Shown one piece after another: positions 24,871 to 58,004 of a stretch of 64,000 bases of DNA (position 1 is the stretch's first letter; every line of letters starts with the position of its first letter). This DNA comes from a virus. Taxonomy: Duplodnaviria > Caudoviricetes. Location: the IMG/VR virus record IMGVR_UViG_2882613001_000002, positions 1 through 64,000 of that record. One strand, written 5' to 3'. Below the pieces are notes generated by a model. It was not told where the DNA came from, did not search any database, and worked only from the letters and a program-made list of their open reading frames with translations. Both the position numbers and the translations under genes were made by a program.

Positions 24871-24874
24871 CGCC

Positions 24875-45009: not shown

Positions 45010-46679
45010 TGCACGCCTCCCGGCTGGGGTGCGGCTGGAAACTCAAACTGCGGAACTTCTAACTGCGCGTCACCCTCGCGCAAAATCAAATCCGCCTGAT
45101 CCTTCATCCATTCGAGCATGAAATTTCCTGCCGATGCGTCGCGGAAATTGATGAGATTGTGTCCGAGAGGCAGCCGCTCGACAGGACCCGCAGCGGCCTT
45201 TTCAAGTTCGATCACTTCCGCCACTCGACGCAGATCGGTCACGAAATCCATCACGATTACCTTGTCTTTACCGTGGCTCAGGCGAAGCCCCCGGCCAAGC
45301 TGCTGGACAAAGATCCGACGGCTATGCGTCGCGCGCATGAAGACAATTAGATCAACATCAGGCACGTCAACGCCTTCGTTAAACAAATCAACACTGGACA
45401 ATACATCGATGTCCCCTCGTCGGAACATTGCCATAAGTCGATCGCGCTCGCGGGCTTCCTGCCTCGACGAAATAGATTCAGCGCGCAATCCGTAACCACG
45501 AAGTGTTCCCGCGAAACTCTCAGCGTGATCAACCGTTGGAGAGAACACAATCCCACCCCGCCGCTTCTCGCTGCGGAAAGCCTCGACAATGTGCCTGGCC
45601 GCCTCATCGTCGCGAGTTGGCATCAAAAGCTTCCTGTTCAGTTGGTTTAGAGAATAGTTGTGCGAAGAGATTTCCTGTACAAACTCCCAGTCGACGTTGT
45701 CTGCCAACAGCCGATAATCGACCTCGCAAAGGTATTTCTGCCTCAGGCCGTCTGAGATACCGAGCCGAACAAGCGGCTTGCCCAATAGCTCATCGATGTC
45801 GAAACCATCGCCGCGCCACGGCGTTGCCGTTGCTCCACCGACCATAGGTGGCTCAAGAGCAGCGAGCGCACGCCGAAAACTAGCGGATCCGATATGATGC
45901 GCCTCATCGACAAGCACCAAGCCAAAATTTGGCAAATCATCGACACGTCCAATGATGCTTTGGACCGTCGCGAAAGTGATTCCATCGTAGAAAGATGGGG
46001 TCTCATCGCCCGAAAGCATATGCGTTGGAACCCACTTGGGCAGCTGATGCCAAAATCCGAATTGTAGCTGTCGAATGAGCTCACGTTTGTCGGCGAGAAC
46101 GAGCACCCGGTTTTCGCGAATGAGGCCATCACGATAAAGATCCGCAACAACTTCCGCCATTACCACGGTCTTGCCTAAACCCGTTGCAAGCACGACTTGA
46201 GCGCGACCCGTGTCCGTGAGGCCTTCGCGAAATCTATCGACTGCCTCTTGCTGATATGGCCTTAGATCCCTTCTCGACTTAGGGTACTCGGGGACTTCTT
46301 GAGCAAGGTGCGCAAGACGAGCTGGATCGAGTAATTCGACATTGATCCCTATCCGGCGGAAACGTTCGATTTCGGCTAGGACTCCACCACCGACCGCGCG
46401 TGAAGTCGCCAGAAGCATACGGTTGGCACCATAGTATGTTCCGGCATCGACAACTTCTTGGACGGCATGTTTCGTGGGCGGGGCGGTCGTGGTGTGTTTG
46501 CACTGCACAACCCAAATCTCACCGTTTTTCACGCCAACGACATCTGCGCCTTTGTCGCCCGAACCACCAACAACGCGCACATCATCGAAGCCTGCATGCA
46601 TCAAAATTCTTGCAACATCGCGCTCAAACGCTTGCCATGGGCCACGTAGGAGTCGCCTGTCGTCAAGAAAGTGCGTCAT
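45006..46679 (-). CDS. Mrr-like nuclease fused to SF2 (ResIII-like) helicase
   Basis: WQAFER...GDKGADV...VQCKH; ATGLGKT, DEAH, TATP, QQLGRGLR. Confidence 0.88.
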   Translation of the reverse strand: MTHFLDDRRLLRGPWQAFERDVARILMHAGFDDVRVVGGSGDKGADVVGVKNGEIWVVQCKHTTTAPPTKHAVQEVVDAGTYYGANRMLLATSRAVGGGVLAEIERFRRIGINVELLDPARLAHLAQEVPEYPKSRRDLRPYQQEAVDRFREGLTDTGRAQVVLATGLGKTVVMAEVVADLYRDGLIRENRVLVLADKRELIRQLQFGFWHQLPKWVPTHMLSGDETPSFYDGITFATVQSIIGRVDDLPNFGLVLVDEAHHIGSASFRRALAALEPPMVGGATATPWRGDGFDIDELLGKPLVRLGISDGLRQKYLCEVDYRLLADNVDWEFVQEISSHNYSLNQLNRKLLMPTRDDEAARHIVEAFRSEKRRGGIVFSPTVDHAESFAGTLRGYGLRAESISSRQEARERDRLMAMFRRGDIDVLSSVDLFNEGVDVPDVDLIVFMRATHSRRIFVQQLGRGLRLSHGKDKVIVMDFVTDLRRVAEVIELEKAAAGPVERLPLGHNLINFRDASAGNFMLEWMKDQADLILREGDAQLEVPQFEFPAAPQPGGVQ

Positions 46680-49069
46680 GCAGAGATCTCAACATCTGGT
46701 TTCAATAGCTCCAGAGACATTACAGCCCGAATGACCTCACTCCGTGAACTGCTGGCAAGATCTCCGCTGTCTTGCTTGGAGAGCCAAACAGCGTCGTCAA
46801 TTAGAGCAAGATAACGCGACAAGACACCAGCGCGTGCTTCTGCGGTGATTTGCGGGTCGCCGTAATCGAGGTCAGCGTAAGGGGAATCCCAAAGCTTGCC
46901 ATCGAAGCATAGGTCCGGCCGTTTCTCAACGGCAATTCGAACAATTTCGAGTGGCCCAGAAAGAAGGAAACTACCATTCACCGTGGCCTCGGAAGGCTTG
47001 ATTTTTTTTGCTGCCAACGCGCGCATAACCGCAGTCTGCTCATCCACGCCTAAGTCATTGAACAGAGAAGCGCGTTCCTCCTCAGGACAAACCGAAACAA
47101 GACAACGAGCCACATCAACTAGAACCGACGTGGCAGTATTGGGCAATGCCTTTAGGTCAAGAGCCGTCTCTTCCCCATAGGCGTCCCGAAAATCCGCGAA
47201 TAATTGAGCAAAGTCGGGCTGTTGGCTAGAGTTGCGAGTCTGATCCGCAGTCATGTAAGCGAGATGCGCTAGGAGCGCGTCCCTTGGTGTCATTGTGATT
47301 GATTCAAAGGTTTTGTGTGCAGGATTGAAAAGAAAATGATGGGTCTTCGTCGTCACGTCACCCATAATCATGGCCCACGGAGCATCTCCCGCTAAATCGG
47401 GGTCCTTGGAGTCGACCTCATATGCGACGACATTCCATTTCATGCCAGTACCGTCATGTTGATACCGGCGACTAAGGAGTGGCGCTTCTCGACGCTCCGG
47501 TGCTGCGGCCTTCTCTGGCTCGGGAGGCGTTGCCGGATCTGGATCAGGCGTATCGCCGCCGGATGTTGCGCCGCCGAGGAGGCCTGGCGGAAGTTGTGCA
47601 TCGCCACCAGATGTCGGTTCCTTGCCCCCAGTTGCTCGTCCGCCGGCGCCGTAGAGCAACTCACGGTCAGCGGCCTCAACGAGCTCCCACCATTTACTGT
47701 CGTCCTGATAGTCAGGATTGCCATCGTGGAAGGCATTGACCATTTCGACGGCGCGAGCGTTGTCCTTGACGATCAAAATTCGTCCGTAGGCGCCTGCAGT
47801 CTTGGAGTGAGGACTCGTCCGTCGGAAAGCTTTAAAAAGTCGAAAGAGCGGTGATTCATTTGGGCCATAGCCAAGATCTTTAGCTTTTTCAGGACGAAGC
47901 GGCCCCTCTCCTCGGATGACTCTATACATTTCATCCCATGTCGGATCTGCACGATCAAAACGATCTTTAGCATAGCTGACCCGGCAATGATCAATGTGGA
48001 TCTCACCAACTATGCGGCCTCGGTTTCGCTGATCGTCAATCGGGTACTCCCGCTCTTCATTTTCCCCATCGCTCCAGGAAAAAAGGTCCTTGTTCCCAAT
48101 CTCAATTTTTCGCCCATTGCGAACAAAATCGATACCGAACTCGGACTGGTCGAGATATCTCTGAATTCCCAGCCACCCCGTAACCTTGCGTTTACGTTCG
48201 ACTACAGACTTAGCGGTTTCGCAATTCGGACATGTTCCGCCCACTTCCGCATCTACGAGCCAACTCATGCAATTGATGCAGTACAATCTGGCTGCGAGTT
48301 CATGATTGATACTGATAACTGCCGGAATATTTGTTCCACCGGGCCCGGGAACAACCCGATCTTCATTCCACAGGCAATGACGTCGCGCCTCGACGCGCTT
48401 GTGGTTCACATAGAGCTCGAAACTGATTGGAATTCCGTTCGGCCGAAGCATCGAAGAGTAAGCTTGCGAGAGCCGTTTGCGTATTGCCGTTTGATTCGCG
48501 TTTTTTGCGAGCCATTTTCTTTGCTCTGGCTTGAGTTGCTTGATCGTAATCTCGGTACCATGTTGATCGGGATCGGCCTTTGCGCGCGACAAACGCGGCG
48601 TCCGAAAGTGACGCTGCAGACGCAACTTGTCGAAATCGATCAGGAGTCCGTGCCACTCACGCTCACCCTTACGCGTAGTCCAAACTTCGGTGACCGAACC
48701 AAGACGAGCCGTGGCGATGTTGAAGCCCATGCCAAACAGCCCAAGGCTATCGATTGGATTATTGCCTGACCAACCGGCGCGTACGGCGCGTTCCAGCATA
48801 TCTGGTGTCATGCCGGGACCATTATCGATAATCCGAAGTGTCGCTCCAGGTGAGTCCGCTTGCGGCAAGTGGACATCGACCTTTGCACCAGCGACCGAGT
48901 TTCCAGCACGTCCTTCTTTCAAAAAGCCGTCAACTGCGTTGTCGACGAGTTCTGCAACGCAGCGCCACTGATCGATGTTGATCTCGCCGAGCATCGGCAA
49001 TACGCGCGGATCAGGCTCGAGATTGAATTCGCTCGCCGGCCGCAGATCGTTCACATTGATGCTCGCCAT
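46676..49069 (-). CDS. MORC/MutL-type GHKL ATPase (797 aa)
   Basis: ELVDNAVD, IIDNGPGM, GLFGMGFNIA, GTEITI; S5-like region with CxxC...CxxC insert; unknown C-terminal half. Confidence 0.85.
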   Translation of the reverse strand: MASINVNDLRPASEFNLEPDPRVLPMLGEINIDQWRCVAELVDNAVDGFLKEGRAGNSVAGAKVDVHLPQADSPGATLRIIDNGPGMTPDMLERAVRAGWSGNNPIDSLGLFGMGFNIATARLGSVTEVWTTRKGEREWHGLLIDFDKLRLQRHFRTPRLSRAKADPDQHGTEITIKQLKPEQRKWLAKNANQTAIRKRLSQAYSSMLRPNGIPISFELYVNHKRVEARRHCLWNEDRVVPGPGGTNIPAVISINHELAARLYCINCMSWLVDAEVGGTCPNCETAKSVVERKRKVTGWLGIQRYLDQSEFGIDFVRNGRKIEIGNKDLFSWSDGENEEREYPIDDQRNRGRIVGEIHIDHCRVSYAKDRFDRADPTWDEMYRVIRGEGPLRPEKAKDLGYGPNESPLFRLFKAFRRTSPHSKTAGAYGRILIVKDNARAVEMVNAFHDGNPDYQDDSKWWELVEAADRELLYGAGGRATGGKEPTSGGDAQLPPGLLGGATSGGDTPDPDPATPPEPEKAAAPERREAPLLSRRYQHDGTGMKWNVVAYEVDSKDPDLAGDAPWAMIMGDVTTKTHHFLFNPAHKTFESITMTPRDALLAHLAYMTADQTRNSSQQPDFAQLFADFRDAYGEETALDLKALPNTATSVLVDVARCLVSVCPEEERASLFNDLGVDEQTAVMRALAAKKIKPSEATVNGSFLLSGPLEIVRIAVEKRPDLCFDGKLWDSPYADLDYGDPQITAEARAGVLSRYLALIDDAVWLSKQDSGDLASSSRSEVIRAVMSLELLKPDVEISA

Positions 49070-49160
49070 TACACTGATTCCCCATTAACCTCAGGATATT
49101 CATTCAATATCTCCGTACGATATGGAGGCCTCAGGTTGAACACAAGCGAAGGAAGAAGAT

Positions 49161-49862
49161 TTGACTGTAGGTACTCCAGTTCCCACGACTTCGGAACTCG
49201 AAGACTACCTCGAGCGCCTGCGGCCGACAGTAGACGAGACGATCGACAGGCTAGGTGCAACCCGCTTCCGGGAAGATCCCATCGCGGGTAGAAAGTACTC
49301 CCGTGCGACCTCGATTATCAGCTCAGCCTACAAAAGACATGGCGCCATCCTTCAAAGGGCCCTACTTGAGCGGCTTAAGGACTGCGCAAGGTTGCGCGTT
49401 TGGACAGAGGACGACTTCAAGCTTTCACATGACACACTCCGGGAGGTCCGGATCGCGGAGCGGCTAGACTCCTTGTTGCAAGCGCACCTTCCGTATGGAG
49501 ATCGTGAACGCTCCGTGCGCGTCGACATCTTGGTATTCGACGAGGTAAGTCGCTCCCTAAACGCCTACAATGTCAAACGCGGCAACGGCTCATACGATGG
49601 AGGAAAGCGGCGCCTTATTCACGAAGAGCTCGTCCGCACCCAGATGCTTCTCAGCGATTACGGCCGCGGGCTTGGGCTCTGGTCGGAGACGAGCAATGCT
49701 CACGTCATCTTCTACTACGGCCTTCTATCGCTACCACCGCCACTTGCGATCTCTGGTTACGATCTCGACGAGCATTTCCAATTTCCTGTCCATGAGGCAA
49801 TCGAACTCGTTAACGCCTATTTCGTTGCGCGGTTATCAGCGCTCATCGAGCAGGAAGACTAG
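49161..49862 (+). CDS. Putative PD-(D/E)xK-fold protein
   Basis: VRVDILVFD...AYNVKRG; divergent from MORC operon. Confidence 0.55.
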   Translation: MTVGTPVPTTSELEDYLERLRPTVDETIDRLGATRFREDPIAGRKYSRATSIISSAYKRHGAILQRALLERLKDCARLRVWTEDDFKLSHDTLREVRIAERLDSLLQAHLPYGDRERSVRVDILVFDEVSRSLNAYNVKRGNGSYDGGKRRLIHEELVRTQMLLSDYGRGLGLWSETSNAHVIFYYGLLSLPPPLAISGYDLDEHFQFPVHEAIELVNAYFVARLSALIEQED

Positions 49863-50054
49863 CCCCACCAATGTTATAGGTAGCTCCGTGCGCACGTTGC
49901 TCGGTCCCCGATTGCGGTTCGATCCCAGTCCTATTTGAATAGGTGGGACCAAGATCGGAAACATTTCTTGCCGCACTCTTTTCCCGTTTTCTTTCAATGT
50001 CTTGGAAGAAATTCACCAAACCAATGCAGTTAACAGGTCCGGAGAATTTCGGGC

Positions 50055-50167
50055 CGAGAGAACGCTTTCGGGTCTCCTGACACCTGTGGCGGTGCCTAGC
50101 CTGCCCCGCAAACCCCTTTGAAAACACGAAAAAATCCAGCCGCAGCCGAATCGAGAGAACGCTTTCG
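50055..50167. repeat. 16-bp direct repeat CGAGAGAACGCTTTCG (x2) next to the att-like site
   Basis: Exact copies at 50055-50070 and 50152-50167. Confidence 0.7.
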
Positions 50168-50177
50168 CGGGGGCAAG

Positions 50178-50196
50178 TGGCGGAGGAGGTGGGATT
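50178..50196 (-). other. 3'-terminal tRNA fragment (Ser-like), att-site remnant
   Basis: Minus strand AATCCCACCTCCTCCGCCA (T-arm 3' side, acceptor strand, G discriminator, CCA); upstream lacks GTTCG so it is not a full tRNA. Confidence 0.7.
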
Positions 50197-50251
50197 TCGC
50201 GCCCTCGATAGACCCTTTATTTGCAAGACATGAAATAGAGGTGTGCGCCAT

Positions 50252-50275
50252 TTTGTGACCCAATTTGTGATCCAA
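50252..50275. repeat. Tandem 12-bp repeat resembling tyrosine-integrase arm sites
   Basis: TTTGTGACCCAA / TTTGTGATCCAA, 55 bp from the tRNA remnant. Confidence 0.5.
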
Positions 50276-50576
50276 TTCTGATACCTTTATGTTACGGCAC
50301 CTCACATAATCTGCAGGACATTCATCTCTATCCGTCAGCACCTCGCGCGCGTTCAGGTTCTCACGCCCTACAGGCGTCGATGGGCTGCTTGAGCGAAATT
50401 CGACATTCGATCATTTGCCTCTTTACTGCGCAGCGCCAGCAGACCGGGCGGAGAGCAGAAGTTCGCTGCAATGCAGCCGAAAGACTGGATGTTTCACCAA
50501 AGCGGACATTTAGGCTTCCTCTTGAAAGCGTATCGTAGAAAGCAGATACTCAATCGACAGATGAGGTTGAGCGATA

Positions 50577-51653
50577 GTGTTTCATGCGAGTGAGGATAGT
50601 CTAGACGACCTATTGAGGGCCGTTTTCAAGCAGCTGCTCACAGGGCGCGGGAATTTTGAAGTCGAATCCAGCAAAGGTAGAAGCACTGAGGTCTTCGGTG
50701 CGCTCTTAGAGCTCAAGAACCCGCGCGCGCGACTAAGCAGATCGTTTTCGAAAGCTAAAGCCTTTAGTCCACTTGGCGAGTTGTTTTGGTACTTGGCGGG
50801 CAGCGATAGCGTCGATTTCATCAAACACTACATCCCCAACTATCCAAAACTGATAAAAGACGAAGTTACTGCAAATGGGGCCTACGGACCGCGAATATTC
50901 GGAAAAGGGGCACTAGAAAAGCGTGACGAAGTTAGCGAGTGGGATCGGGTGATCCGTACTTTGCGTGAGCGAGAGGGCTCGCGCAACGCAATAATACAGA
51001 TTTACGCTAACTCCGATGCTAGGCCCGAGAACGGCGACAAGCCTTGTACCTGCACCATTCAATTTGCGGTTAGGAATGGGCAGTTGTTGATGCACACGCA
51101 TATGCGGTCCAATGACGCATTCTTCGGCCTCCCGCACGACATTTTCACTTTTACTATGCTTCAGGAGGTTGCGGCTCGTGAACTTGGGTTTGGGCTGGGT
51201 AAGTATACCCATTCTGTGACAAGCCTACACTTGTACCATGACTATGCGGCAACTGAGGGTCGCCCAGCGAACACTTCAACATCTGGCGCCAAAGCGTACT
51301 ACAGGGAGGGTTTCCATGATTTCTCGCCAATGCCTGAAATGCCATCAGGAGACCCATGGCCGAGCATAGAAAAGGTAAAAATGGCAGAGCAAGAAATCCG
51401 ATCTGGCAACATCGAGTACATCGCTCCAACAGACCTTGATCCGTACTGGCGCGACTTCATTGAGCTTTTCAGAATCCACAAAATATTTGAGGAAATGAAG
51501 AAGCGCGGAGATGGCCTTAGAACCGAGAGGCCCGAGCTGCGCAGAGTTGTGAAGGTCATGAAAGAAACTTCACCGACCTATCGGATCTACATCCTCGGTA
51601 GGCTCGAAAGAAAACAATCCCCCGTTAGGGATCTATTTGAGAATGTAAGTTGA
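50577..51653 (+). CDS. Thymidylate synthase superfamily protein, dCMP (hydroxy)methylase-like
   Basis: ELFWY, YGPR, KPCT catalytic Cys, MRSND, GLPHD (Asp at the E. coli N177 position), SLHLY; extra C-terminal domain; GTG start. Confidence 0.85.
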   Translation: MFHASEDSLDDLLRAVFKQLLTGRGNFEVESSKGRSTEVFGALLELKNPRARLSRSFSKAKAFSPLGELFWYLAGSDSVDFIKHYIPNYPKLIKDEVTANGAYGPRIFGKGALEKRDEVSEWDRVIRTLREREGSRNAIIQIYANSDARPENGDKPCTCTIQFAVRNGQLLMHTHMRSNDAFFGLPHDIFTFTMLQEVAARELGFGLGKYTHSVTSLHLYHDYAATEGRPANTSTSGAKAYYREGFHDFSPMPEMPSGDPWPSIEKVKMAEQEIRSGNIEYIAPTDLDPYWRDFIELFRIHKIFEEMKKRGDGLRTERPELRRVVKVMKETSPTYRIYILGRLERKQSPVRDLFENVS

Positions 51654-51663
51654 GAGGTGGGTC

Positions 51664-52602
51664 ATGAACGGTGTCCACAAAGACAGAATAGACGAGTTCC
51701 TCGGAAAGATTGGCCAGATTGACGCGCAATTTGGCCCACTCCCCAGTATTGCAACAGCCCAGCGGAGACGTTGCTGGGCGCAACAAATCGTGTCCAGCCT
51801 ACGTCGAATTTCATATACAGACACGTTGTTGATGCGTAGAGTGAATGCGGCGAGGTGTGATCCGCATTCCGGTATTTTCGACCCGGTACGAGGGGCGCTT
51901 CACTTTCAGAGAAGCGGACAACTCGATGAAGCGGTCTGGTTAACTTTCGTCCTCACCCATTTTGGAAAACACGCGGTAGATGAATGGAAGCTGGCTGCAA
52001 ATGTCTATGGTTCGTTTAGCGTGGGACCAGTTTGGACGTTCGCACAGTATACTGCAGACCGTGCAGGGTTCGAGAACATGTTGGCCGCAAACTCTGGCCG
52101 GTTGGCGGACGCCAACATTTCGGGTAGTTTTTCTAACCACCGCAAATTTCAGAGCAAGAAACATCAAGCCATAGCGAAGACGTTTCGCACGTACTATGAG
52201 TGGCAGACTGAGTTCGGCGGATTTCGTGATCGAATGATCGCGACACATGCAAGTTTCGGTCAGGAACCCGAAGCGGCTTTCGATGCTCTCTACAAGTCCA
52301 TGAAGGGGGTTTTTGGCTTCGGTGGAGGACGCCTCGGAAGGTTCGATTTCCTTACGATGCTCGGCAAACTTCAGCTTGCTCCGATTACACCAGGCAGCGT
52401 CTACTTGGATAAGGCAACAGGACCTCTTGCAGGGGCACGGCTTCTGTTTTTCGGTGATCGCGACCATCACATTACCGGTAGAGCCTTGGAGCCTCACGTT
52501 GATGCCTTGGACGGGGTTCTTGGCGTGGGAAAACAGGTGATCGAAGACAGCCTTTGCAATTGGCAAAAAAGCCCTGATGTTTACGAGTATTTCCGAGGTT
52601 GA
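51664..52602 (+). CDS. aGPT-PPlase clade 3-like protein (HhH glycosylase-related DNA base hypermodification family)
   Basis: FDPVRGA, DEAVWLTFVLTHFGKH, NHRKFQS, GRLGRFDFL, ATGPLAGARLLF, EDSLCNWQKSP, recognised from memory of the family. Confidence 0.7.
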   Translation: MNGVHKDRIDEFLGKIGQIDAQFGPLPSIATAQRRRCWAQQIVSSLRRISYTDTLLMRRVNAARCDPHSGIFDPVRGALHFQRSGQLDEAVWLTFVLTHFGKHAVDEWKLAANVYGSFSVGPVWTFAQYTADRAGFENMLAANSGRLADANISGSFSNHRKFQSKKHQAIAKTFRTYYEWQTEFGGFRDRMIATHASFGQEPEAAFDALYKSMKGVFGFGGGRLGRFDFLTMLGKLQLAPITPGSVYLDKATGPLAGARLLFFGDRDHHITGRALEPHVDALDGVLGVGKQVIEDSLCNWQKSPDVYEYFRG

Positions 52603-53708
52603 GAAGGGACCGGCAGTTTAGTGCTCCCTTCCCATTTGTAACGGCGCTTTAGATCATTAAATTGGTGGGGCTGGAGCGCCCCAGCTTTTTGAAGCTGTCC
52701 GACAATAATTCCCGGTGTGACCCCGGCTTTTCGAGCGATTCTCCGTACATGAGGACGGGTCGGCATTGCGTTTAACATCTCATCTCGCAAGTCAGCCGAA
52801 ACAAGCGTATCTTGAGCGAAAATGTCAGCTTCGCCTTCGAATACAGACGCTCCTAGCGGTGACGGATCAGCGCCATCCACCGAAATGTGGTCAGTGCCAT
52901 GCAGAACCACGTGTGCGGCCTCGTGGAAAAAAGTGAACCAAAAATGGTCTTCACTTAAATAGCGAAAGCTTAGCAAGATAATCGGGTTGCCGTTTGGGGA
53001 TGTCCAAGTGGCACCGCTTGCTCTACAACCTTTCGGGGCCTTCGAGCTTACCAGGCCAACACCTTCCTCAGCGCAAGCTTGCTGCAGTTTTGGAAAGAAT
53101 AACTCCGGGCGCTTGAGCGCACATAGCTTCTTCAACTCAGTCAGACGTTTCTTGAAATTGCTCGCGGAAAACTTCGCCAAGGTCAGGTTTTCAGCTTGCA
53201 TCTCTCCGATACGCAGCCAGGCCAAAGTCGCCATCTCGTCGGCCTCAAAGGCAAAAGATGTTCGAAATGCAACTTGGCCTATCCCAGCGGAGTACCGCTG
53301 GTTCCAACCGCTGATGCTATCGCATCCAAAAAAGTTCAGGATGTCCTCGGATAGACGCTCACCGCGAGAGCCTTTCGGCAGCCAACCGAGTTCTCGGAGG
53401 GCTCGAACTGGAAACGACTGCCCCCACCTAGACAACTCTTCGGTTGGCGCAGAACCTGCAAGCCGCGCTCTATCTCCCAGAAACTGGTTATAGCGTTCAA
53501 TCCAGAACTGGCGTGATGCACCAAGCTCCGAAGATAGGGCGTCTGCGATTTCTTCGGAAATCACAACGCGCCCTTCCATTATTCCAGAAAACAAGTCTTC
53601 TTCGAACCCGATGCGTTCGGCCAAATCGTGAATTGATTTTTTTCCAGCCGCAGCCAGCCTTGCGATTGTGTCGCCCGGTGGGGAAGCCCAGTTTGGTTCA
53701 AACATCAA
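52581..53708 (-). CDS. HigA-like XRE HTH fused to ImmA/IrrE metallopeptidase
   Basis: FEPNWASPPGDTI, HTH, WFTFFHEAAHVVLH (HExxH), EGEADIFA. Confidence 0.88.
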   Translation of the reverse strand: MMFEPNWASPPGDTIARLAAAGKKSIHDLAERIGFEEDLFSGIMEGRVVISEEIADALSSELGASRQFWIERYNQFLGDRARLAGSAPTEELSRWGQSFPVRALRELGWLPKGSRGERLSEDILNFFGCDSISGWNQRYSAGIGQVAFRTSFAFEADEMATLAWLRIGEMQAENLTLAKFSASNFKKRLTELKKLCALKRPELFFPKLQQACAEEGVGLVSSKAPKGCRASGATWTSPNGNPIILLSFRYLSEDHFWFTFFHEAAHVVLHGTDHISVDGADPSPLGASVFEGEADIFAQDTLVSADLRDEMLNAMPTRPHVRRIARKAGVTPGIIVGQLQKAGALQPHQFNDLKRRYKWEGSTKLPVPSQPRKYS

Positions 53709-54028
53709 GCAAACACCTCCCCTTCAATTACGATAGCTTTCAGGTGGATTCGATGAGCATCTTTCCACGCTTCGTCTCCAACGCCGGATGCAGCTATCAC
53801 CGTCTTCAGTGTGCAGCCAGTGGATACGAACCAGTCCAGCTCAAAGGTGCCTTCTACTTTCGTCGCCGAAAGCGGTCCCATAGGTACGTCACCGGCAAAG
53901 AACGCCGCCCTGAAATCCGCCACCAAACCAATGAACGCCTGACCGTCCTCACTTCCGAGGTGACGGTAGGCTTTCTTGCGTTCTGTTGCCAAGTCCCTCA
54001 TGAGCTTGCTCGAAAAAGTCGGTTCCAA
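53705..54028 (-). CDS. HigB/RelE-like small partner protein
   Basis: Probable TTG start (MEPTFSSKLMRDL...LVADFRAA); ATGA overlap with HigA-IrrE gene. Confidence 0.55.
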   Translation of the reverse strand: MEPTFSSKLMRDLATERKKAYRHLGSEDGQAFIGLVADFRAAFFAGDVPMGPLSATKVEGTFELDWFVSTGCTLKTVIAASGVGDEAWKDAHRIHLKAIVIEGEVFA

Positions 54029-54567
54029 GGATCCAGCATCCCAAAAGTTGCACAAAATGGAGCCTTGGAAGGCACGTCGCTTACAATATCTTCCCAGCAG
54101 TCATACATGCAGCGGGTGTAGCGGGCGTGGTCGCGAAAGTCACTAGCGAACTGTCGTGCGGATAGGACCCGCTGGCAACATCTGCCACACTGATCTGTTT
54201 GGGAACGATGCGCAGAGTGGCTCAATGCCGATGCTGACCAAGGAAAGGGGCTCGATGCGCGAGCGCCTCCGGATGTACCTGATGGACTATCAGCTCTATG
54301 CGGGCCTCTTCAGTTGCAGGGCGTGCCGCGCTTCCTTCTCGGCGGCTGTATCCTTCACCCTGTACAAGGCGCGCGAGGTTTCTGCGCCGTCGCCAATTCT
54401 GGGTAATGCTGCGCAGTGTCTATACGACTGCTATAGAGGAGCTGGAGCGCAGCATTATGATCCTCCGCGAAGGTCAGCTCTGGGCCGGTCGTGTCGTTCA
54501 GCCACGATAAGGCTCTGCCGATCAGCGCACCCGCTCCCTGTGTATTCGGAGCGTGTCGTCAAGTTAG

Positions 54568-54587
54568 GCGGGGCGTTTCCGCCCCGC
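54568..54587 (-). terminator. Hairpin ending prophage 2 lysis operon
   Basis: GCGGGGCG-GAAA-CGCCCCGC just after the spanin stop; weak U tract. Confidence 0.5.
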
Positions 54588-54592
54588 TCAAG

Positions 54593-54775
54593 CTACCGGC
54601 AAGCGCCGGTCATGGCTGCATCGGTGACAGCAACCCAAGCGCCGAGGGACGTGTCGGGCAGCGGGCGGGGCATATGGCTGCGCTCGGCGCCATAGGTCTG
54701 GCATCCGGCCCCGCTCGGGATCTCCGGCGCACAGGCGGCAAGCGCCAGAACGATCAGCACCGCACCGCACCTCAT
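54593..54775 (-). CDS. Putative o-spanin lipoprotein
   Basis: VLIVLALAAC lipobox; C-terminus similar to 6374-6616. Confidence 0.65.
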   Translation of the reverse strand: MRCGAVLIVLALAACAPEIPSGAGCQTYGAERSHMPRPLPDTSLGAWVAVTDAAMTGACR

Positions 54776-54999
54776 TTCCAAGCCTCATCATTCTGGCGTG
54801 CGATCTGTTCGGGCGACTGATCGGAGCGCAGAGCGTCGGCTGCTGCCGCCCTGCCCCGATCCGCCCGGTGATCTGCCTCGCGCGCCTGGTCGAGCCGCGC
54901 CGAGCGGCGGCCGCCCCGGCGCGCGGCGACCACGGCCGCCATCACCAGGGCCACGCCCGCCACCAGCTTCAGCCAGATCCGCGACAGCAGCGCGCTCAT
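54772..54999 (-). CDS. Putative i-spanin
   Basis: N-terminal TM, then charged helix similar to 6504-6734. Confidence 0.6.
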   Translation of the reverse strand: MSALLSRIWLKLVAGVALVMAAVVAARRGGRRSARLDQAREADHRADRGRAAAADALRSDQSPEQIARQNDEAWK

Positions 55000-55205
55000 G
55001 TCGTGCCGCCCTTCTTCTTCACGATGCGACTGGCGGCAAAGGTGCCACCAAAGACCGACAGCCCCGCCAGCACCTCGACCAGCGGTTCGATCTGAATGGT
55101 CAGCGTCCCGGCCTCGGGATTGAACGTCGCCCATCCCTGCCCGGCCACGAAGGCCCCGCCGAGGTAAAGCGCCATGCGAATGAACAGGCCAATGCTTCCA
55201 GCCAT
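54996..55205 (-). CDS. Holin-like two-TM protein
   Basis: Two hydrophobic segments, basic C-terminus RIVKKKGG. Confidence 0.6.
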   Translation of the reverse strand: MAGSIGLFIRMALYLGGAFVAGQGWATFNPEAGTLTIQIEPLVEVLAGLSVFGGTFAASRIVKKKGGTT

Positions 55206-55235
55206 GTGAGTGTCTCCTTTCTGAAGGTGTTGAGA

Positions 55236-55898
55236 TCAGGCGACGGCGCGCACGCCGAACAGCTGCGCCAGGAACGCGGCAAGGGGCGAGCGATCCGCCG
55301 GGCGGGCTTTGGCCGGGGCGCTTTGCATCGGCGCCGGGATGATCACGGCCGCGCGCGCCAGACGGGTCGCACGATCAAGTACGCCGCAGTCATCGGCTTG
55401 CGCGCCCGCGTTCTTGCCGATGACCCGCACCGACCAGCCCGCGCCGAAGGTGCGCCAGGTCCGCAGCCCACGCAGGAAGCGCATGCGCCGGGCACAGAGC
55501 GCGGCAATCACCGCCTCGACGTCGGCGCCATTGGCGGCCGCCAGCGTCTGCGCGCCGACAATCCCGTCGACCGAGACCCCCAGCACCCGCTGCAGCTCCC
55601 TGGCCGCGTGCCCCACGCCGGAGTTCACCGCGTAGTCGCCAACGCAGTAATCAAGCCCAGTAGGCAGCAGATCCGCCCCCACCTTGTCGAGGTATTGGTG
55701 CGCGATGATCGCCTCGGCCTCGGCCTTCGGGATCCCGCGCACCGGGCGCAGACGCTGGCCGTGCATCCGGTTCCAGGCATCAAAGGTGCCTTGGGTGATG
55801 CCGCGATCCGTCGCGCCGCCAGGATCGTCGGGATGATGCACATAGCCCCCCTCCGACAGGCCGATCCAGGATTGGATAAGCTGATAGTTCTTCCGCAT
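55236..55898 (-). CDS. Endolysin, glycoside hydrolase family 108
   Basis: SEGGYVHHPDDPGGATDRGIT, DYAVNSG, TFGAGW; RBS GAAGGAG before ATG 55898. Confidence 0.9.
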   Translation of the reverse strand: MRKNYQLIQSWIGLSEGGYVHHPDDPGGATDRGITQGTFDAWNRMHGQRLRPVRGIPKAEAEAIIAHQYLDKVGADLLPTGLDYCVGDYAVNSGVGHAARELQRVLGVSVDGIVGAQTLAAANGADVEAVIAALCARRMRFLRGLRTWRTFGAGWSVRVIGKNAGAQADDCGVLDRATRLARAAVIIPAPMQSAPAKARPADRSPLAAFLAQLFGVRAVA

Positions 55899-55910
55899 TT
55901 CTGTCTCCTT

Positions 55911-55943
55911 CAAAGCAAAAGGCCCCGGAGTTTCCGGGGCCTT
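55911..55943 (-). terminator. Intrinsic terminator immediately upstream of endolysin RBS
   Basis: AAGGCCCCGGA-AAC-TCCGGGGCCTT followed by TTGCTTT. Confidence 0.7.
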
Positions 55944-55972
55944 GGGTCAGGGTGTTGCGCGGGCGGGGTGTA

Positions 55973-56284
55973 TCAGGGCGGTCGGTCCAGGAGCGTCGCT
56001 GCCGCCGCGACCAGACAGCCCGCGATCAGCCAGATCGCCTTGTCGAGCGCGCGAAAGAAGATCCCGCGTCCGATGCTGAGACGTTCCAGCAGCACCACTT
56101 TCTCCGTGAGGATCGCCTGATCGTGCTCATGCTTGCGGGCCAGCAGGCCCTGGTCCCGGTCATAGCGCTCCATCCGCTTGAACAGCGTCACCAGCTGTTC
56201 CTGCATCCGGGCCTGCTGGACCACCACGTCAGACAGCTTGTCGAGCGTCTGTTCGATCCGTTCCAGCCTCTGCTGATCTGACAT
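55973..56284 (-). CDS. Coiled-coil protein with C-terminal TM (lysis-associated)
   Basis: MSDQQRLERIEQTLDKL...AIWLIAGCLVAAAATLL. Confidence 0.65.
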   Translation of the reverse strand: MSDQQRLERIEQTLDKLSDVVVQQARMQEQLVTLFKRMERYDRDQGLLARKHEHDQAILTEKVVLLERLSIGRGIFFRALDKAIWLIAGCLVAAAATLLDRPP

Positions 56285-56337
56285 GCACATGCCCCCAAGT
56301 GTCTGCTGAGTGTCTGCCCCCCTGCCCCGAACGGCTG

Positions 56338-56763
56338 TCAGGCAATGCCGGGGCGCATGAGTGTGGCCTGCACGGTGAGGCTTGAACCATCCTCCCCGCT
56401 GGATTGATACGCGGGCCGCGCGGCGACCTCGGTATAGGCCTGCCAATCGTCAGGTCGGGACTGCACGTCGGCATAGACCGCATCTACCGTATCGAGACCC
56501 GTGTAGGGCGCGCGGCCGAGGACCCGAACACCTTCAAGTGTTTCCCATGCGGGCACCTCATCTTCCCGCAAGTGAACGTAGCAGATGAAGGCCTCGCCGC
56601 CTGGCTGGTAGACAGCGGGCGTTCGCGCAAGACCGACGACCCGCGGTGTTTCGAACCCGTTTTCGTCGCTGGGAAGGGCCACGTATTGGGGCATGGAAGA
56701 GAGGAGACCCGCGAGGAAGGTGGCTTCGTTTTCGCCGCGCACGAGAGCTGCTGTGAGGGTCAT
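56338..56763 (-). CDS. Hypothetical protein (possible fibre chaperone)
   Basis: ATGA overlap with the spike fibre gene. Confidence 0.6.
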   Translation of the reverse strand: MTLTAALVRGENEATFLAGLLSSMPQYVALPSDENGFETPRVVGLARTPAVYQPGGEAFICYVHLREDEVPAWETLEGVRVLGRAPYTGLDTVDAVYADVQSRPDDWQAYTEVAARPAYQSSGEDGSSLTVQATLMRPGIA

Positions 56764-58004
56764 TGGGCAGTCCTCGCCTTCATGGCTTCAACTGGCACGG
56801 AGGCAGGATAAAGACCAAGCCCCAAGACGCTCGTGTTCCGGACAGATAACTGACCGGGGAACGCATCTGCAATCCGCAGCGTGGTGGGAGCTGCGTATCC
56901 TGACGGGACGTTGGCGTCCCATAGGGTGCCGTTGAGGACGAGCGACAGGTTGCCCGGAGAGAAGCGGCACGCTATCGAATACTCTGCGGGTAGGCTATAA
57001 GGGCTGACAGCAGAAGCGTAGCCCCCACTATAGAACTGACGTGCTTGAGTGCTGGAGCCAGATAGCACCGTAATGAGACGGTTGACCTCTTCGGACCCTC
57101 CGTCGAGCTCGAACAACCTGTCACCCGAGAGTAATTCACCCCACAAGAGCCCGTCCAGAACGAGCCAAAGCCCATCGTCCAGGTCAAACTCGGATATGTC
57201 TGAGAGCGGGTGGTCACCGGCGCGAGTAACTGCCCCACTGGTCGTGTCGATGTAAGAGGACGCCGCGTTGTTTTCTTCCAGCTGGGCACCCCACACCGCC
57301 ACCGAACCGTAGGAAGCTGGAACTCCGATGAACGATCTGTGTGGGTAAACACGCACGTTCTCGCATCCCTCGGGTACTACAAAGGTGCACGCCACGCGTG
57401 CCCACCCGTTAGCCAACGTCTGCGTTACGTATGCGTCAGATACAACGGGATGGACAATGAAGGACGCGTCGGTGTTGTTGTACACAGCCAGATAGTTGAT
57501 CGAAGTCCCTTTCTTGACGTAGTAGCTGAACGTAAGGGTCGTCCCAGCTACCACAGACAGGGATTGTTGATACAGGATGCCGGTGGAAGACCCGGTTACA
57601 TTCAGGCTATCCGCCAGTGTAACGCCATCAGGGGAGACAACCGAATTAGGGGTCACGGTCATGCCGTTAGCCTTTTCCCATATATCGTTGGTGTAGTCCT
57701 TAGAGTACAGCACAGTGTTGGTAGCGGTATTCTCGACCAAAAGGCGGCGCTTTCCAGTCCGCCAGTCGAACCTGGGCTCGTTGATAGGAGCTGTACCTAC
57801 AGTCAAATCCTCGGCCACGTACCGAGCAGCCCCGGCTCGCGTGAACGAGAGGTTCTTGAACTGCGTGACCGGCTGTCCGTTACGAGCATATCGTCCATTC
57901 TCGAAGTCGGCGTACCACAAGGGGGCCACGCCGTTGATGGCGCCAAACCCGTTTCGCAGCGCGGTCATCCCGAAGTTATTCGCGGCGAAGAGCATCAGAC
58001 CCAT
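56760..58004 (-). CDS. Head-spike fibre-like protein with carbohydrate-binding/lectin-type domains (RcGTA rcc01080-like)
   Basis: YADFENGRY, FTRAGAARY, LLVENTATN, WGAQLEE...SSYIDT, VTRAGD; follows spike base gene. Confidence 0.7.
   Translation of the reverse strand: MGLMLFAANNFGMTALRNGFGAINGVAPLWYADFENGRYARNGQPVTQFKNLSFTRAGAARYVAEDLTVGTAPINEPRFDWRTGKRRLLVENTATNTVLYSKDYTNDIWEKANGMTVTPNSVVSPDGVTLADSLNVTGSSTGILYQQSLSVVAGTTLTFSYYVKKGTSINYLAVYNNTDASFIVHPVVSDAYVTQTLANGWARVACTFVVPEGCENVRVYPHRSFIGVPASYGSVAVWGAQLEENNAASSYIDTTSGAVTRAGDHPLSDISEFDLDDGLWLVLDGLLWGELLSGDRLFELDGGSEEVNRLITVLSGSSTQARQFYSGGYASAVSPYSLPAEYSIACRFSPGNLSLVLNGTLWDANVPSGYAAPTTLRIADAFPGQLSVRNTSVLGLGLYPASVPVEAMKARTAQ

What the first reader, a model, noticed from the sequence alone, without database searches (positions are those of the whole stretch)
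50577..52602. Two-gene nucleotide/DNA modification cassette: dCMP-type thymidylate synthase homolog plus aGPT-PPlase clade 3 protein
Sequence: the TS-fold protein keeps the catalytic Cys, RSxD and HxY but has Asp at the E. coli N177 position (GLPHD) and a C-terminal extension. A gene 10 nt downstream encodes an HhH-glycosylase-related aGPT-PPlase3-like protein. The pair is AT-richer, opposes the phage genes and sits at the prophage end. No kinase or other modification gene is adjacent. Established: Asp at this site marks cytosine-specific enzymes such as T4 dCMP hydroxymethylase, and other aGPT-PPlase clades transfer groups onto hydroxymethyl-pyrimidines in phage DNA. Inference: an uncharacterised prophage-borne system that either hypermodifies DNA against restriction, or makes a modified dCMP that marks replicating invader DNA for attack by the glycosylase-fold partner. 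This is the best candidate for a new system in the window.
Basis: partly seen in the sequence, partly recalled or inferred. Interest (0 to 1): 0.85.

Follow-up and report, generated by a model that had tools for sequence, protein, structure and literature searches.

The report
Four-gene cytosine-modifying cassette, likely defence
The two genes are real but are only half of a sharply bounded four-gene mobile cassette, found from E. coli to Chloroflexota: a cytosine-hydroxymethylating enzyme and a DNA-base transferase-like enzyme are joined tail to tail to a toxin-antitoxin-like switch, and the whole is probably an untested anti-phage system.

Summary
Window 50577-51653 encodes a thymidylate-synthase-fold enzyme. 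Its diagnostic residues (Asp at E. coli L143, D169 and N177; Ser/Arg deoxyribose signature) predict dCMP to 5-hydroxymethyl-dCMP. Its closest solved relative is MilA (E 1e-43), which shares the C-terminal extension. Ten bases downstream, 51664-52602 is a full-length aGPT-Pplase clade 3 protein.

Two genes converge on the pair. One is an Xre-HTH plus M78 peptidase (52581-53705, PD-Lambda-2_B-like). Translationally coupled upstream of it is a 107-aa HigB/RelE-fold protein (53705-54028). All four travel together as a 3.6-3.9 kb block with unrelated flanks, in about 70 genomes of many phyla, in all 26 viral-contig loci found (of 2.9 million contigs) and in 237 of 5,426 complete E. coli genomes.

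The clade 3 protein keeps the Cys/Glu motif of proven amino-acid:DNA transferases. Its nearest structure is the phage PaMx11 gp46 transferase, so a C5 transferase is more likely than a glycosylase. No kinase is present.

Best reading: a switch-controlled conflict (anti-phage) cassette carried as temperate-phage cargo. The family is named in Pfam, and a 2026 paper highlights an aGPT-Pplase system (composition not confirmed to be this one) as predicted but unvalidated defence. This scan found the same cassette before in another genome.

The parts
50511..54404 (.). Whole mobile cassette: the DNA block shared with other genomes, with unrelated flanks on both sides
   Evidence: blastn of window 47001-57000 against the fetched loci. 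Identity is 89-90% over 50511/50519-54404 with L001-L004, and 72-82% over 50550-54143/54159 with L005-L009. Nothing outside the block matches.
50522..50550 (+). Promoter-like site (TTGAAA, 17 nt spacer, GATACT) about 27 nt upstream of the TS-like gene start. A GAGG ribosome-binding site lies at 50563-50566.
   Evidence: The number of such sites in the region is within chance expectation, so this is a placement argument only. Sequence read.
50577..51653 (+). TS-fold enzyme (358 aa), predicted dCMP 5-hydroxymethylase, with a MilA-like C-terminal helical domain
   Evidence: Best solved relative is MilA (5b6d/5jnh) at E 1e-43 over residues 36-321. Invariant residues: C157, R52, E68, Y103, R177, S178, D180, H187, D188, H218, Y220. 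D154 sits at the E. coli L143 position.
51664..52602 (+). aGPT-Pplase clade 3 protein (312 aa), related to amino-acid:DNA transferases (AADT); helix-hairpin-helix glycosylase (HhH-GPD) superfamily fold; invariant E294-D295-x-x-C298-N-W-Q-K-S-P motif
   Evidence: PF18746 matches at 6e-85 and PF18724 at 9e-80. The model has pLDDT 94.6. The best structural match is PaMx11 gp46 (8z2n), Z 9.8.
52581..52602 (.). 22-nt convergent overlap of the 3' ends of the clade 3 gene and the HTH-peptidase gene, with no intergenic terminator
   Evidence: Across loci, 62 of 64 have a gap of 20 nt or less, and 40 of 64 overlap by 4-22 nt.
52581..53705 (-). Xre-type HTH plus M78 (ImmA/IrrE) metallopeptidase (HM), 374 aa from ATG 53705, with an intact HEAAH motif
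   Evidence: Pfam HTH_31 and Peptidase_M78 match. PADLOC PD-Lambda-2_B matches at 2.9e-27 and capP at 2e-4. H261, E262, H265 and E290 are invariant in 42 members.
53705..54028 (-). 107-aa HigB/RelE-fold protein (s110), TTG start. Its stop codon overlaps the start of the peptidase gene (TGATG).
   Evidence: The model has pLDDT 94. The top 24 structural matches are all RelE/ParE/HigB toxins (HigB 4mcx_B: Z 8.6, rmsd 2.9, 88 aligned). A homologue lies upstream of the peptidase gene in 71 of 71 loci.
54023..54070 (.). 13-nt inverted repeat (TTCCAAGGATCCA / TGGAGCCTTGGAA) spanning the start of the small gene; possible operator, untested
   Evidence: The half-site is not enriched in the window and is not found upstream of the TS-like gene.

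Best explanation
This is a self-contained four-gene mobile conflict cassette. Here it rides in the accessory (moron) region of a temperate phage, next to restriction systems.

Effector half (+ strand):
- The TS-fold enzyme converts dCMP, using methylene-tetrahydrofolate, into 5-hydroxymethyl-dCMP. This is inferred from diagnostic residues.
- The clade 3 aGPT-Pplase is a cysteine-dependent enzyme of the amino-acid:DNA transferase type. It attacks C6 of a 5-substituted pyrimidine and exchanges the group on the C5 methylene.
- Its most likely substrate is 5-hydroxymethylcytosine once that base has entered DNA. No kinase step is involved. The substrate and acceptor are inferred and unknown.

Switch half (- strand):
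- It consists of a HigB-fold small protein and an Xre-HTH/M78 peptidase, built like components A and B of the validated abortive-infection system PD-lambda-2.
- It probably keeps the effector silent or harmless until infection or DNA damage triggers the peptidase.

Net function: most likely protection of the lysogen or host against other phages by corrupting the cytosine nucleotides or DNA of replicating invaders.

Shown here: gene anatomy, family assignments, conserved catalytic residues, strict four-gene synteny, cassette boundaries, and mobile or defence-island contexts.

Inferred: every enzymatic step, the trigger, and the defence role.
For: TS-like enzyme:
1. Asp188 at E. coli N177 is invariant (44/44). 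The L143 position is acidic (D154; 41/44 D or E). Asp180 is kept at D169 (44/44). R136 and S178 sit where MilA has K133 and A176.
2. PMC13326640 and PMC5175136 read these residues as cytosine substrate, non-methyl product, not a 5-hydroxy-dCMP synthase, and deoxyribose preference.
3. MilA is the best solved relative, at E 1e-43.

Clade 3 protein:
1. It matches PF18746 at 6e-85. It also matches PF18724 ADDT at 9e-80, the model that the proven glycine:DNA transferase M6 gp51 hits at 1.4e-46.
2. Its invariant E294/D295/C298 motif lines up with the gp51 motif VETVLCKWK. The Cys and the neighbouring Glu of that motif are essential (PMC8989533). In PaMx11 gp46 the equivalent Cys247 attacks C6 (PMC11472151).
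3. The best structural match is gp46, with Z 9.8 over 219 residues.

Synteny:
1. In the genome-contig loci, the TS-like gene lies upstream of the clade 3 gene in 68 of 78 loci by tblastn, and a cut copy lies at the contig end in a 69th (L044). Of the other nine, four are cut too short to tell, L051 and L056 lack it, L075 is a decayed remnant, and L018 and L059 were not resolved.
2. The convergent peptidase gene is present in 75 of 78 loci. The small gene is present in 71 of 71 loci where it could be tested.
3. The same layout is seen in all 26 IMG/VR loci.
4. The cassette boundaries are sharp.

Switch: PD-Lambda-2_B matches at 2.9e-27, the small protein has a HigB fold, and the HExxH motif is invariant. 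PD-lambda-2 is a validated abortive-infection defence in which B is toxic and A neutralises it (PMC9519451).

Context:
1. E. coli strain 2009C-3133 carries the cassette between a dGTPase-family gene, a Type I restriction-modification system and a SIR2 gene.
2. Flanking genes in other loci include restriction helicases, Shedu, integrases and transposases.
3. In the window it sits beside an Eco29kI-like/Dcm pair and an Mrr-helicase/HATPase pair.
4. DefensePredictor lists an aGPT-Pplase system as predicted defence. It experimentally validated a different TS-containing system.
Against: - No experiment exists for any of the four proteins.
- No dNMP kinase or dCTPase is present to carry 5hm-dCMP efficiently into DNA. 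T4 needs gp1 for this step. The product may therefore stay at nucleotide level.
- The known transferases need a phosphorylated hydroxymethyl group made by a 5-hmdU DNA kinase, which is absent here.
- The clade 3 protein could still be a glycosylase or only a binder.
- Neither enzyme hits any PADLOC model.
- PD-lambda-2 component C was not found.
- No shared operator links the two operons.
- Neighbourhoods also include housekeeping genes.
- A defence-island location is suggestive only.
Confidence: 0.55

Rival explanations
1. Self-modification for anti-restriction. The carrying element, here a temperate phage, uses the two enzymes to hypermodify cytosines in its own DNA during lytic growth. The HTH-peptidase would be an ImmR/ImmA-like induction switch that turns the pathway on after SOS induction.
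For: - Every characterised relative of the second enzyme serves phage self-protection (PMC8989533, PMC11472151).
- The window is a temperate phage or prophage.
- ImmA/IrrE-type peptidases respond to DNA damage. The PADLOC capP match is 2e-4.
- 26 IMG/VR contigs carry the cassette.
Against: - The clade 3 protein has no tblastn match in 50,697 phage genome records. Only 26 of 2.9 million viral contigs carry it, often near contig ends.
- Most copies sit in chromosomal islands with unrelated flanks.
- There is no dNMP kinase, dCTPase or other gene needed for bulk replacement of cytosine.
- The cassette is transcribed against the phage operons, and close relatives lie outside prophages.
Confidence: 0.17
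2. Nucleotide-level action only. The TS homologue drains dCMP or methylene-THF, or makes 5hm-dCMP as a toxic or signalling nucleotide. The second protein then acts on the free nucleotide, for example by releasing 5-hydroxymethylcytosine as the MilA/MilB pair does, or by derivatising it. DNA is never modified.
For: - MilA is the closest characterised relative, and it works with an N-glycosidase on the mononucleotide (PMC5175136, PMC4081090).
- The second protein has a glycosylase-superfamily fold.
- No kinase is present to make the triphosphate.
- Nucleotide-depleting defences are established (from my own knowledge, not checked here: dCTP deaminase and dGTPase). A dGTPase-family gene lies next to the E. 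coli copy.
Against: - The Ser/Arg signature is the deoxyribose type, not the MilA ribose type.
- The second protein belongs to a family whose solved member binds dsDNA and flips a base (PMC11472151).
- A UDG-fold third gene in 19 loci points to DNA as the arena.
- No other biosynthetic genes accompany it.
Confidence: 0.18
3. Mark and cut. 5hmC is incorporated into replicating DNA, and the HhH-fold protein excises it as a DNA glycosylase. In some relatives the UDG-fold protein would do this instead. The resulting abasic sites destroy invader DNA.
For: - HhH-GPD glycosylases fill ranks 3-34 of the structural search, with Z 5-9.
- 19 loci insert a UDG-fold gene with MUG/SMUG-like motifs (LGLNPS, HNIQSS) between the two enzymes.
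Against: - The invariant residues are those of the transferase motif (Glu/Asp-x-x-Cys), not a conserved Asp at the usual distance after the hairpin.
- The transferase is the best structural match and the best HMM match.
- The UDG-fold assignment rests on one Atlas look-up (TM 0.58/0.75). A PDB sequence-profile search with the alignment of this gene (X276) gave no UDG match.
Confidence: 0.1

Closest known systems
Phage thymidine hypermodification pathway (M6, ViI, PaMx11, PhiW-14, SP10): dUMP hydroxymethylase, 5-hmdU DNA kinase and amino-acid:DNA transferase (aGPT-Pplase clade 2)
   Same: - A TS-fold hydroxymethylase is paired with a member of the same transferase superfamily.
- The Pfam model PF18724 is shared.
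- The Cys/Glu catalytic motif is shared.
- The nearest solved structure is PaMx11 gp46.
   Different: - The TS here is cytosine-type (Asp188), not uracil-type. M6 gp58 has Asn at that position.
- There is no 5-hmdU DNA kinase and no PLP, radical-SAM or FAD tailoring enzyme.
- The cassette lies in bacterial chromosomes and prophage cargo regions and is absent from 50,697 phage records.
- It is joined to a toxin-antitoxin-like switch.
MilA (CMP 5-hydroxymethylase, mildiomycin pathway) and T4 gp42 dCMP hydroxymethylase
   Same: - MilA is the best solved relative (E 1e-43), and the C-terminal helical domain is shared.
- Asp occupies the E. coli L143 and N177 positions, as in MilA and T4 gp42 (PMC13326640).
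   Different: - MilA has Lys133/Ala176 and prefers CMP. This family has Arg136/Ser178, as the deoxy-specific enzymes do (PMC5175136).
- There is no MilB-type N-glycosidase and no antibiotic gene cluster.
- Unlike T4, there is no dNMP kinase, dCTPase or glucosyltransferase.
PD-lambda-2 (Vassallo et al. 2022), a three-gene abortive-infection defence: HigB-like A, Xre-HTH/peptidase B, and C related to a P4 antitoxin
   Same: - The small HigB-fold gene is translationally coupled to an Xre-HTH plus M78 peptidase gene.
- The B model matches at 2.9e-27 over most of the protein.
   Different: - No C component is present.
- The small protein has no sequence-level match to HigB or to the A model and no invariant catalytic residues.
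- The pair is welded tail to tail to two nucleotide/DNA-modifying enzymes.
DefensePredictor systems (PMC13092281): validated E. coli system DS-4 (TS, dNMP kinase, 5-hmdU-kinase-like, TIR, NMAD) and a predicted, unvalidated aGPT-Pplase system
   Same: - A TS-fold enzyme serves as part of a bacterial immune system.
- An aGPT-Pplase-containing system is highlighted there as a predicted defence, with one gene homologous to a known defence gene. That would fit the PD-Lambda-2_B-like gene.
   Different: - DS-4 has a kinase, a TIR effector and NMAD, and no clade 3 protein.
- The predicted aGPT-Pplase system was not tested.
- I could not confirm from the held text that its gene content is identical to this cassette.

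Membership tests
Thymidylate synthase superfamily (PF00303) | Profile match above the curated cut-off | tested here: met
   74.8 bits against a cut-off of 24.3, residues 65-223. All NCBIfam ThyA equivalog models score far below their cut-offs, so it is not a housekeeping ThyA.
Thymidylate synthase superfamily (PF00303) | Catalytic Cys, phosphate-binding Arg residues, and Glu58/Tyr94/His-x-Tyr equivalents | tested here: met
   C157, R52, R136 (43/44), R177, E68, Y103, H218 and Y220 are conserved in 44 members.
dCMP 5-hydroxymethylase class (T4 gp42 / MilA type) | Asp at the E. coli N177 position (cytosine substrate) | tested here: met
   D188 in 44/44 members. Criterion taken from PMC13326640 and PMC5175136.
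dCMP 5-hydroxymethylase class (T4 gp42 / MilA type) | Acidic residue at the E. coli L143 position (product other than methyl) | tested here: met
   D154 here. In the family: D 29, E 12, other 3, of 44.
dCMP 5-hydroxymethylase class (T4 gp42 / MilA type) | Asp kept at E. coli D169 (Asn there marks 5-hydroxy-dCMP synthases) | tested here: met
   D180 in 44/44 members. Criterion from PMC13326640, section 28.
dCMP 5-hydroxymethylase class (T4 gp42 / MilA type) | Deoxyribose signature Arg/Ser, against Lys133/Ala176 in the ribose-preferring MilA | tested here: met
   R136 in 43/44 and S178 in 44/44 members (PMC5175136).
dCMP 5-hydroxymethylase class (T4 gp42 / MilA type) | Measured conversion of dCMP to 5hm-dCMP | not testable with these tools
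   Needs an enzyme assay.
aGPT-Pplase clade 3 (PF18746) | Full-length profile match above the cut-off | tested here: met
   285.4 bits against a cut-off of 25; residues 35-312 cover profile positions 3-279 of 279.
Amino-acid:DNA transferase (AADT, aGPT-Pplase clade 2, PF18724) | Profile match and a fold like the solved member PaMx11 gp46 | tested here: met
   PF18724 matches at 8.6e-80 over profile positions 1-232 of 232. M6 gp51 hits the same model at 1.4e-46. VIA-align gives Z 9.8, rmsd 4.6 and 219 aligned residues to 8z2n.
Amino-acid:DNA transferase (AADT, aGPT-Pplase clade 2, PF18724) | Essential Cys with a neighbouring Glu near the C-terminus | tested here: met
   E294, D295 and C298 are invariant in 44 members. 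hhalign places IEDSLCNWQK on the gp51 motif VETVLCKWKS, although the overall hhalign probability is low because a single sequence served as template.
Amino-acid:DNA transferase (AADT, aGPT-Pplase clade 2, PF18724) | Partner 5-hmdU DNA kinase that supplies 5-phosphomethyl-dU | tested here: not met
   The conserved block holds only four genes. None of them, and no window neighbour, is a kinase. No kinase family appears among the 25 most common families in 110 flanking proteins.
Amino-acid:DNA transferase (AADT, aGPT-Pplase clade 2, PF18724) | Uracil-type hydroxymethylase that supplies 5-hmdU | tested here: not met
   The partner TS homologue is cytosine-type (D188), whereas M6 gp58 has Asn at that position.
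HhH-GPD DNA glycosylases | Two-lobed helical fold with a helix-hairpin-helix | tested here: met
   MjOgg Z 9.1, AlkA-like Z 8.8, Mag1 Z 8.3; MutY, AGOG, EndoIII and OGG1 Z 6-7.5. These Z values are middling for an all-helical protein.
HhH-GPD DNA glycosylases | Conserved catalytic Asp about 20 residues after the hairpin | tested here: inconclusive
   No invariant acidic residue lies between the G253-P254-x-x-G257 hairpin-like motif and E294. No residue-level structural superposition was available.
PD-lambda-2 defence system | Component B: Xre-HTH fused to an M78 peptidase | tested here: met
   PDLC03982 matches at 2.9e-27; residues 45-343 cover profile positions 93-377 of 402. HExxH is invariant.
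PD-lambda-2 defence system | Component A: HigB-like protein encoded just upstream | tested here: inconclusive
   The fold test is met (HigB Z 8.6, and the top 24 hits are all RelE/ParE superfamily), and so is the position. But there is no PADLOC or Pfam sequence match.
PD-lambda-2 defence system | Component C (related to a P4 antitoxin), required for defence | tested here: not met
   No window protein tested hits a PD-Lambda-2_C model. The cassette block holds no fifth gene.

The most novel reading that the evidence does not exclude
A kinase-independent cytosine hypermodification pathway is used as a weapon rather than a shield. When the HigB-like/Xre-peptidase switch fires, the cassette feeds 5-hydroxymethyl-dCMP into replicating DNA. 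The clade 3 enzyme then converts 5hmC directly, by Cys attack at C6 and dehydration with no phosphate leaving group, into a bulky adduct or a covalent DNA-protein crosslink. This stalls invader replication. It would be both a new DNA modification chemistry and a new mode of abortive immunity.
Probability: 0.3. Interest if true: 0.85.

Novelty: new variant of a known kind. Interest (0 to 1): 0.62.

Why it matters
All characterised enzymes of this transferase family belong to lytic phages. They decorate thymine through a kinase-activated intermediate in order to escape restriction. This cassette has the same enzyme logic but differs in three ways. It is re-tooled for cytosine, it lacks the kinase, and it is owned by bacteria and temperate elements and wired to a toxin-antitoxin-like switch.

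If it is a defence, immune systems would have borrowed phage DNA-hypermodification chemistry. If it modifies DNA, it may reveal an unknown cytosine derivative and a new way to activate 5hmC, which is of interest for 5hmC-labelling technology.

It is directly testable. About 4% of complete E. coli genomes carry a 3.3 kb version.

Tried and rejected
- **PADLOC on the two enzymes:** no match.
- **NCBIfam on the clade 3 protein:** no match.
- **PDB sequence searches:** the clade 3 protein, alone or as a profile, gave nothing. The profile of the third gene (X276) gave only chance-level rows.
- **Pfam on 32 small-protein homologues:** no HigB or RelE family was detected. The fold assignment therefore rests on the predicted structure.
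- **Foldseek alone:** only E > 0.01 rows for both models. The VIA-align runs gave the usable rankings.
- **Fused forms of the clade 3 protein:** the search for longer proteins found none. This is weak evidence.
- **Shared operator:** I looked for one upstream of both operons. The inverted repeat at the small gene's start has no counterpart upstream of the TS-like gene, and its half-site is not enriched. The cassette has no terminal repeats.
- **Window genome:** no whole genome is held, so other thyA or thyX copies could not be checked.
- **Sequencing runs:** no run holds more than half of the sampled words, and the RNA runs hold under a tenth. Nothing was laid, so nothing is claimed about expression or habitat.
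- **Papers not held:** Iyer et al. 2013 and Burroughs et al. 2015, which first described these families, could not be read.
- **HATPase, Mrr-helicase and Dcm neighbours as part of the system:** considered and rejected. They are not conserved beside the cassette in other loci. The recurring neighbours there appear to be Type I restriction genes and similar (clusters c5/c8/c23, named from size and helicase similarity only), as in E. coli.


Full report
**1. The observation**

They are 50577-51653 (GTG start, 358 aa) and 51664-52602 (ATG start, 312 aa), both on the + strand and 10 nt apart.

The first matches Pfam Thymidylat_synt at 8e-21, but only over residues 65-223. It matches no NCBIfam ThyA equivalog at its cut-off. 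The second is a full-length aGPT-Pplase clade 3 protein (PF18746, 6e-85).

The region has 51-52% G+C, against 64-70% in the phage core of the window. In an alignment of 44 family members from many phyla they are invariant: C157, R177-S178-x-D180, H218-x-Y220, and D188 in GLPHD at the E. coli N177 position.

**2. What the first enzyme is**

Its best solved relative by far is MilA, the CMP 5-hydroxymethylase of mildiomycin biosynthesis (5b6d/5jnh). The E-value is 1e-43 over residues 36-321, so the 'C-terminal extension' is the extra five-helix domain described for MilA (PMC5175136).

Published diagnostic positions give a consistent reading.
- Asp at E. coli N177 selects cytosine.
- An acidic residue at L143 goes with products other than a methyl group. 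Here it is D154, and 41 of 44 family members have D or E.
- Asn at D169 marks the recently discovered flavin-dependent 5-hydroxy-dCMP synthases. This family keeps Asp (D180, 44/44) (PMC13326640).
- The two residues that make MilA prefer ribose, Lys133 and Ala176, are Arg136 (43/44) and Ser178 (44/44) here, as in the deoxy-specific enzymes (PMC5175136).

The prediction is dCMP to 5-hydroxymethyl-dCMP. This is an inference from residues, not a measurement.

**3. What the second enzyme is**

Besides PF18746, it matches PF18724 (amino acid:DNA transferase) at 9e-80 over the whole model. The experimentally proven glycine:DNA transferase gp51 of phage M6 hits the same model at 1.4e-46.

The family's invariant residues cluster in a C-terminal motif, E294-D295-x-x-C298-N-W-Q-K-S-P. 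A profile comparison places this on the gp51 motif VETVLCKWK. The cysteine and neighbouring glutamate of that motif are essential in M6 gp51 and ViI gp247 (PMC8989533). The equivalent Cys247 of PaMx11 gp46 is proposed to attack C6 of the flipped-out base (PMC11472151).

An AlphaFold model built from the alignment is confident (pLDDT 94.6). Its best structural match is PaMx11 gp46 (Z 9.8, 219 residues). HhH-GPD glycosylases (Z 6-9) and the queuine-salvage DUF2419 follow.

But the conserved chemistry is that of the cysteine-dependent C5 transferases.

The protein has no tblastn match in 50,697 phage genome records. A profile search of 1.84 billion representative proteins finds 767 clusters, all about 300-330 aa.

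**4. The unit is four genes, not two**

I fetched 78 loci encoding relatives of the second protein from one-genome-per-species contigs and clustered their ORFs.

- *TS-like gene.* tblastn finds it directly upstream on the same strand in 68 of 78 loci, and a cut copy lies at the contig end in L044. Of the other nine, four are cut too short to tell. L051 and L056 lack it, L075 is a decayed remnant, and L018 and L059 were not resolved.
- *HTH-peptidase gene.* A gene of about 365 aa converges on the pair in 75 of 78 loci. In the window it is 52581-53705 (-). It has an Xre-type HTH plus an M78 (ImmA/IrrE) peptidase domain with an intact and invariant HExxH motif. It matches the PADLOC model PD-Lambda-2_B at 2.9e-27.
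- *Junction.* The 3' ends of the two convergent genes overlap by 22 nt here. The gap is 20 nt or less in 62 of 64 loci.
- *Small gene.* Directly upstream of the peptidase gene, with stop and start codons overlapping (TGATG), lies a 107-aa gene at 53705-54028, with a TTG start fixed by comparison with relatives. A homologue is present in 71 of 71 loci that could be tested.
- *Fold of the small protein.* It has no Pfam or PADLOC match. Its confident model (pLDDT 94) gives HigB, RelE, YoeB, YafQ and ParE toxins as the top 24 of 48,161 chains (HigB Z 8.6, rmsd 2.9 over 88 residues). Scores then drop to Z about 4.
- *Boundaries.* DNA comparison shows that the window shares exactly this block with other genomes, 50511-54404 at most, and nothing outside it.
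- *Other collections.* All 26 IMG/VR loci have the same arrangement, as do 237 of 5,426 complete E. coli genomes.

**5. The switch half**

PD-lambda-2 is a validated abortive-infection system of E. coli. Its first gene is HigB-like. Its second is an Xre-HTH/peptidase fusion that is toxic alone and is neutralised by the first. A third gene is needed for defence (PMC9519451).

The - strand pair here has the same architecture as components A and B. No C component is present. The small protein family has no invariant catalytic residues, so it may act as a partner or neutraliser rather than an RNase.

The peptidase domain is also weakly related to CapP (2e-4).

**6. Context**

The window is a temperate phage or prophage.
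- Head-protease, portal and terminase genes lie at 15-21 kb.
- DNA methyltransferases lie at 23.7-26.1 kb.
- Primase/helicase, helicase and Sak4 genes lie at 28-35 kb.
- Tape-measure, tail and endolysin genes lie at 55-63 kb, all on the - strand.

Between them sits a 17 kb low-GC accessory region. It holds a large serine recombinase, an Eco29kI-like endonuclease with a Dcm methylase, an Mrr-nuclease/helicase, a HATPase_c_3 protein, and the cassette. The cassette is therefore phage cargo among defence genes, not at a prophage end.

Elsewhere its flanks are unrelated and typical of mobile islands. They include restriction helicases, Shedu, integrases, transposases and relaxases, mixed with housekeeping genes. 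In E. coli 2009C-3133 it lies between a dGTPase-family gene, an IS3 element, a MazG-like gene, a Type I restriction-modification system and a SIR2 gene.

**7. Informative variants**

- In 19 loci a gene of about 276 aa lies between the two enzymes. It has motifs resembling MUG/SMUG glycosylases (LGLNPS, HNIQSS), and the Atlas model of it aligns with a UDG-family cluster (TM 0.58/0.75). This is a lead only, but it points to DNA as the arena.
- In two Bacteroidota loci the clade 3 gene stands without the TS homologue and without the switch. There it lies next to a system of a C5 DNA methylase, HATPase, Z1, DUF4420 and AIPR proteins. This again links the protein to C5-modified cytosine in DNA. 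Two loci are too few to weigh heavily.

**8. Mechanism and rivals**

My best reading (0.55) is a regulated conflict cassette. The enzyme pair makes 5hm-dCMP and derivatises the C5 substituent. This most likely happens on DNA and without a kinase step. The HigB-like/Xre-peptidase pair controls or licenses the enzymes.

The chemistry is plausible. As I recall (not checked here), cysteine-dependent C5 enzymes can dehydrate 5hmC directly.

The main weaknesses are three. No dNMP kinase carries the product into DNA. The phosphorylation step that the known transferases require is absent. There is no experimental evidence at all.

The rivals are:
- self-modification by the carrying element (0.17);
- a purely nucleotide-level effect, or MilA/MilB-like release of the base (0.18);

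**9. Novelty**

The family is named in Pfam and by NCBI. DefensePredictor (2026) highlights an aGPT-Pplase-containing system as predicted but unvalidated defence, and it experimentally validated a different TS-containing system. I could not confirm that its predicted system has the same gene content as this one.

An earlier follow-up in this scan reached the same four-gene description on another genome. I re-derived that description independently here.

This is therefore an uncharacterised variant of a known kind of pathway, not an unnoticed one. Its biochemistry and biological role remain open, and they can be tested directly in E. coli.

Noticed in passing
window 42089-44097: Convergent Type II restriction-modification pair. 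The endonuclease is Eco29kI-like (GIY-YIG, 42089-42859, +). The C5 cytosine methylase lies at 42856-44097 (-) and matches PADLOC MTase_II at 3e-124.
   Followed up: partly
window 44488-49069: A three-gene operon on the - strand, possibly a MORC-like or modification-dependent restriction system.
- 173-aa protein with no family match.
- Mrr_cat nuclease fused to a ResIII/helicase (PADLOC mREase_IV, 4e-36).
- 797-aa HATPase_c_3 protein.
It is not conserved beside the cassette in other loci.
   Followed up: partly
window 37157-39349 (-): A 730-aa ORF in the low-GC accessory region with no Pfam or PADLOC match.
   Followed up: partly
window 40195-41505 (+): A large serine recombinase (Resolvase, Recombinase and zinc-ribbon domains) in the middle of the accessory region; probably the phage integrase. 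Phage genes lie on both sides, so the window may be an unintegrated or circularly permuted phage genome.
   Followed up: no
window 23682-26128 (-): Two adjacent phage DNA methyltransferase genes. One is a fusion of a ParB-like N-terminal domain and a methyltransferase (phrog_498, 1e-154).
   Followed up: no
L023 9103-9936 and 18 other loci: A third gene of about 276 aa lies between the TS homologue and the clade 3 gene. It has MUG/SMUG-like motifs and an Atlas structural match to a UDG-family cluster. It has no Pfam, PADLOC or PDB sequence match.
   Followed up: partly
L051 444-10729; L056 9031-18665: In two Bacteroidota genomes the clade 3 gene occurs without the TS homologue and without the switch. 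It sits beside a system of a C5 DNA methylase, HATPase_c_3, Z1, DUF4420 and AIPR proteins and an N6 methylase fragment.
   Followed up: partly
L080 (E. coli 2009C-3133, NZ_CP013025.1 1661736-1683065): The E. coli cassette sits in a defence island with a dGTPase-family gene, an IS3 element, a Type I restriction-modification system and a SIR2 gene. An 88-aa MazG-like gene follows the switch in enterobacterial copies. The small HigB-fold gene is not annotated in this RefSeq record.
   Followed up: partly
L075 2497-4172: A decayed copy of the cassette in Meridianimarinicoccus aquatilis. Only the last 45 residues of the clade 3 gene remain, while the peptidase and small genes are kept. This suggests the switch pair can persist alone.
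   Followed up: no
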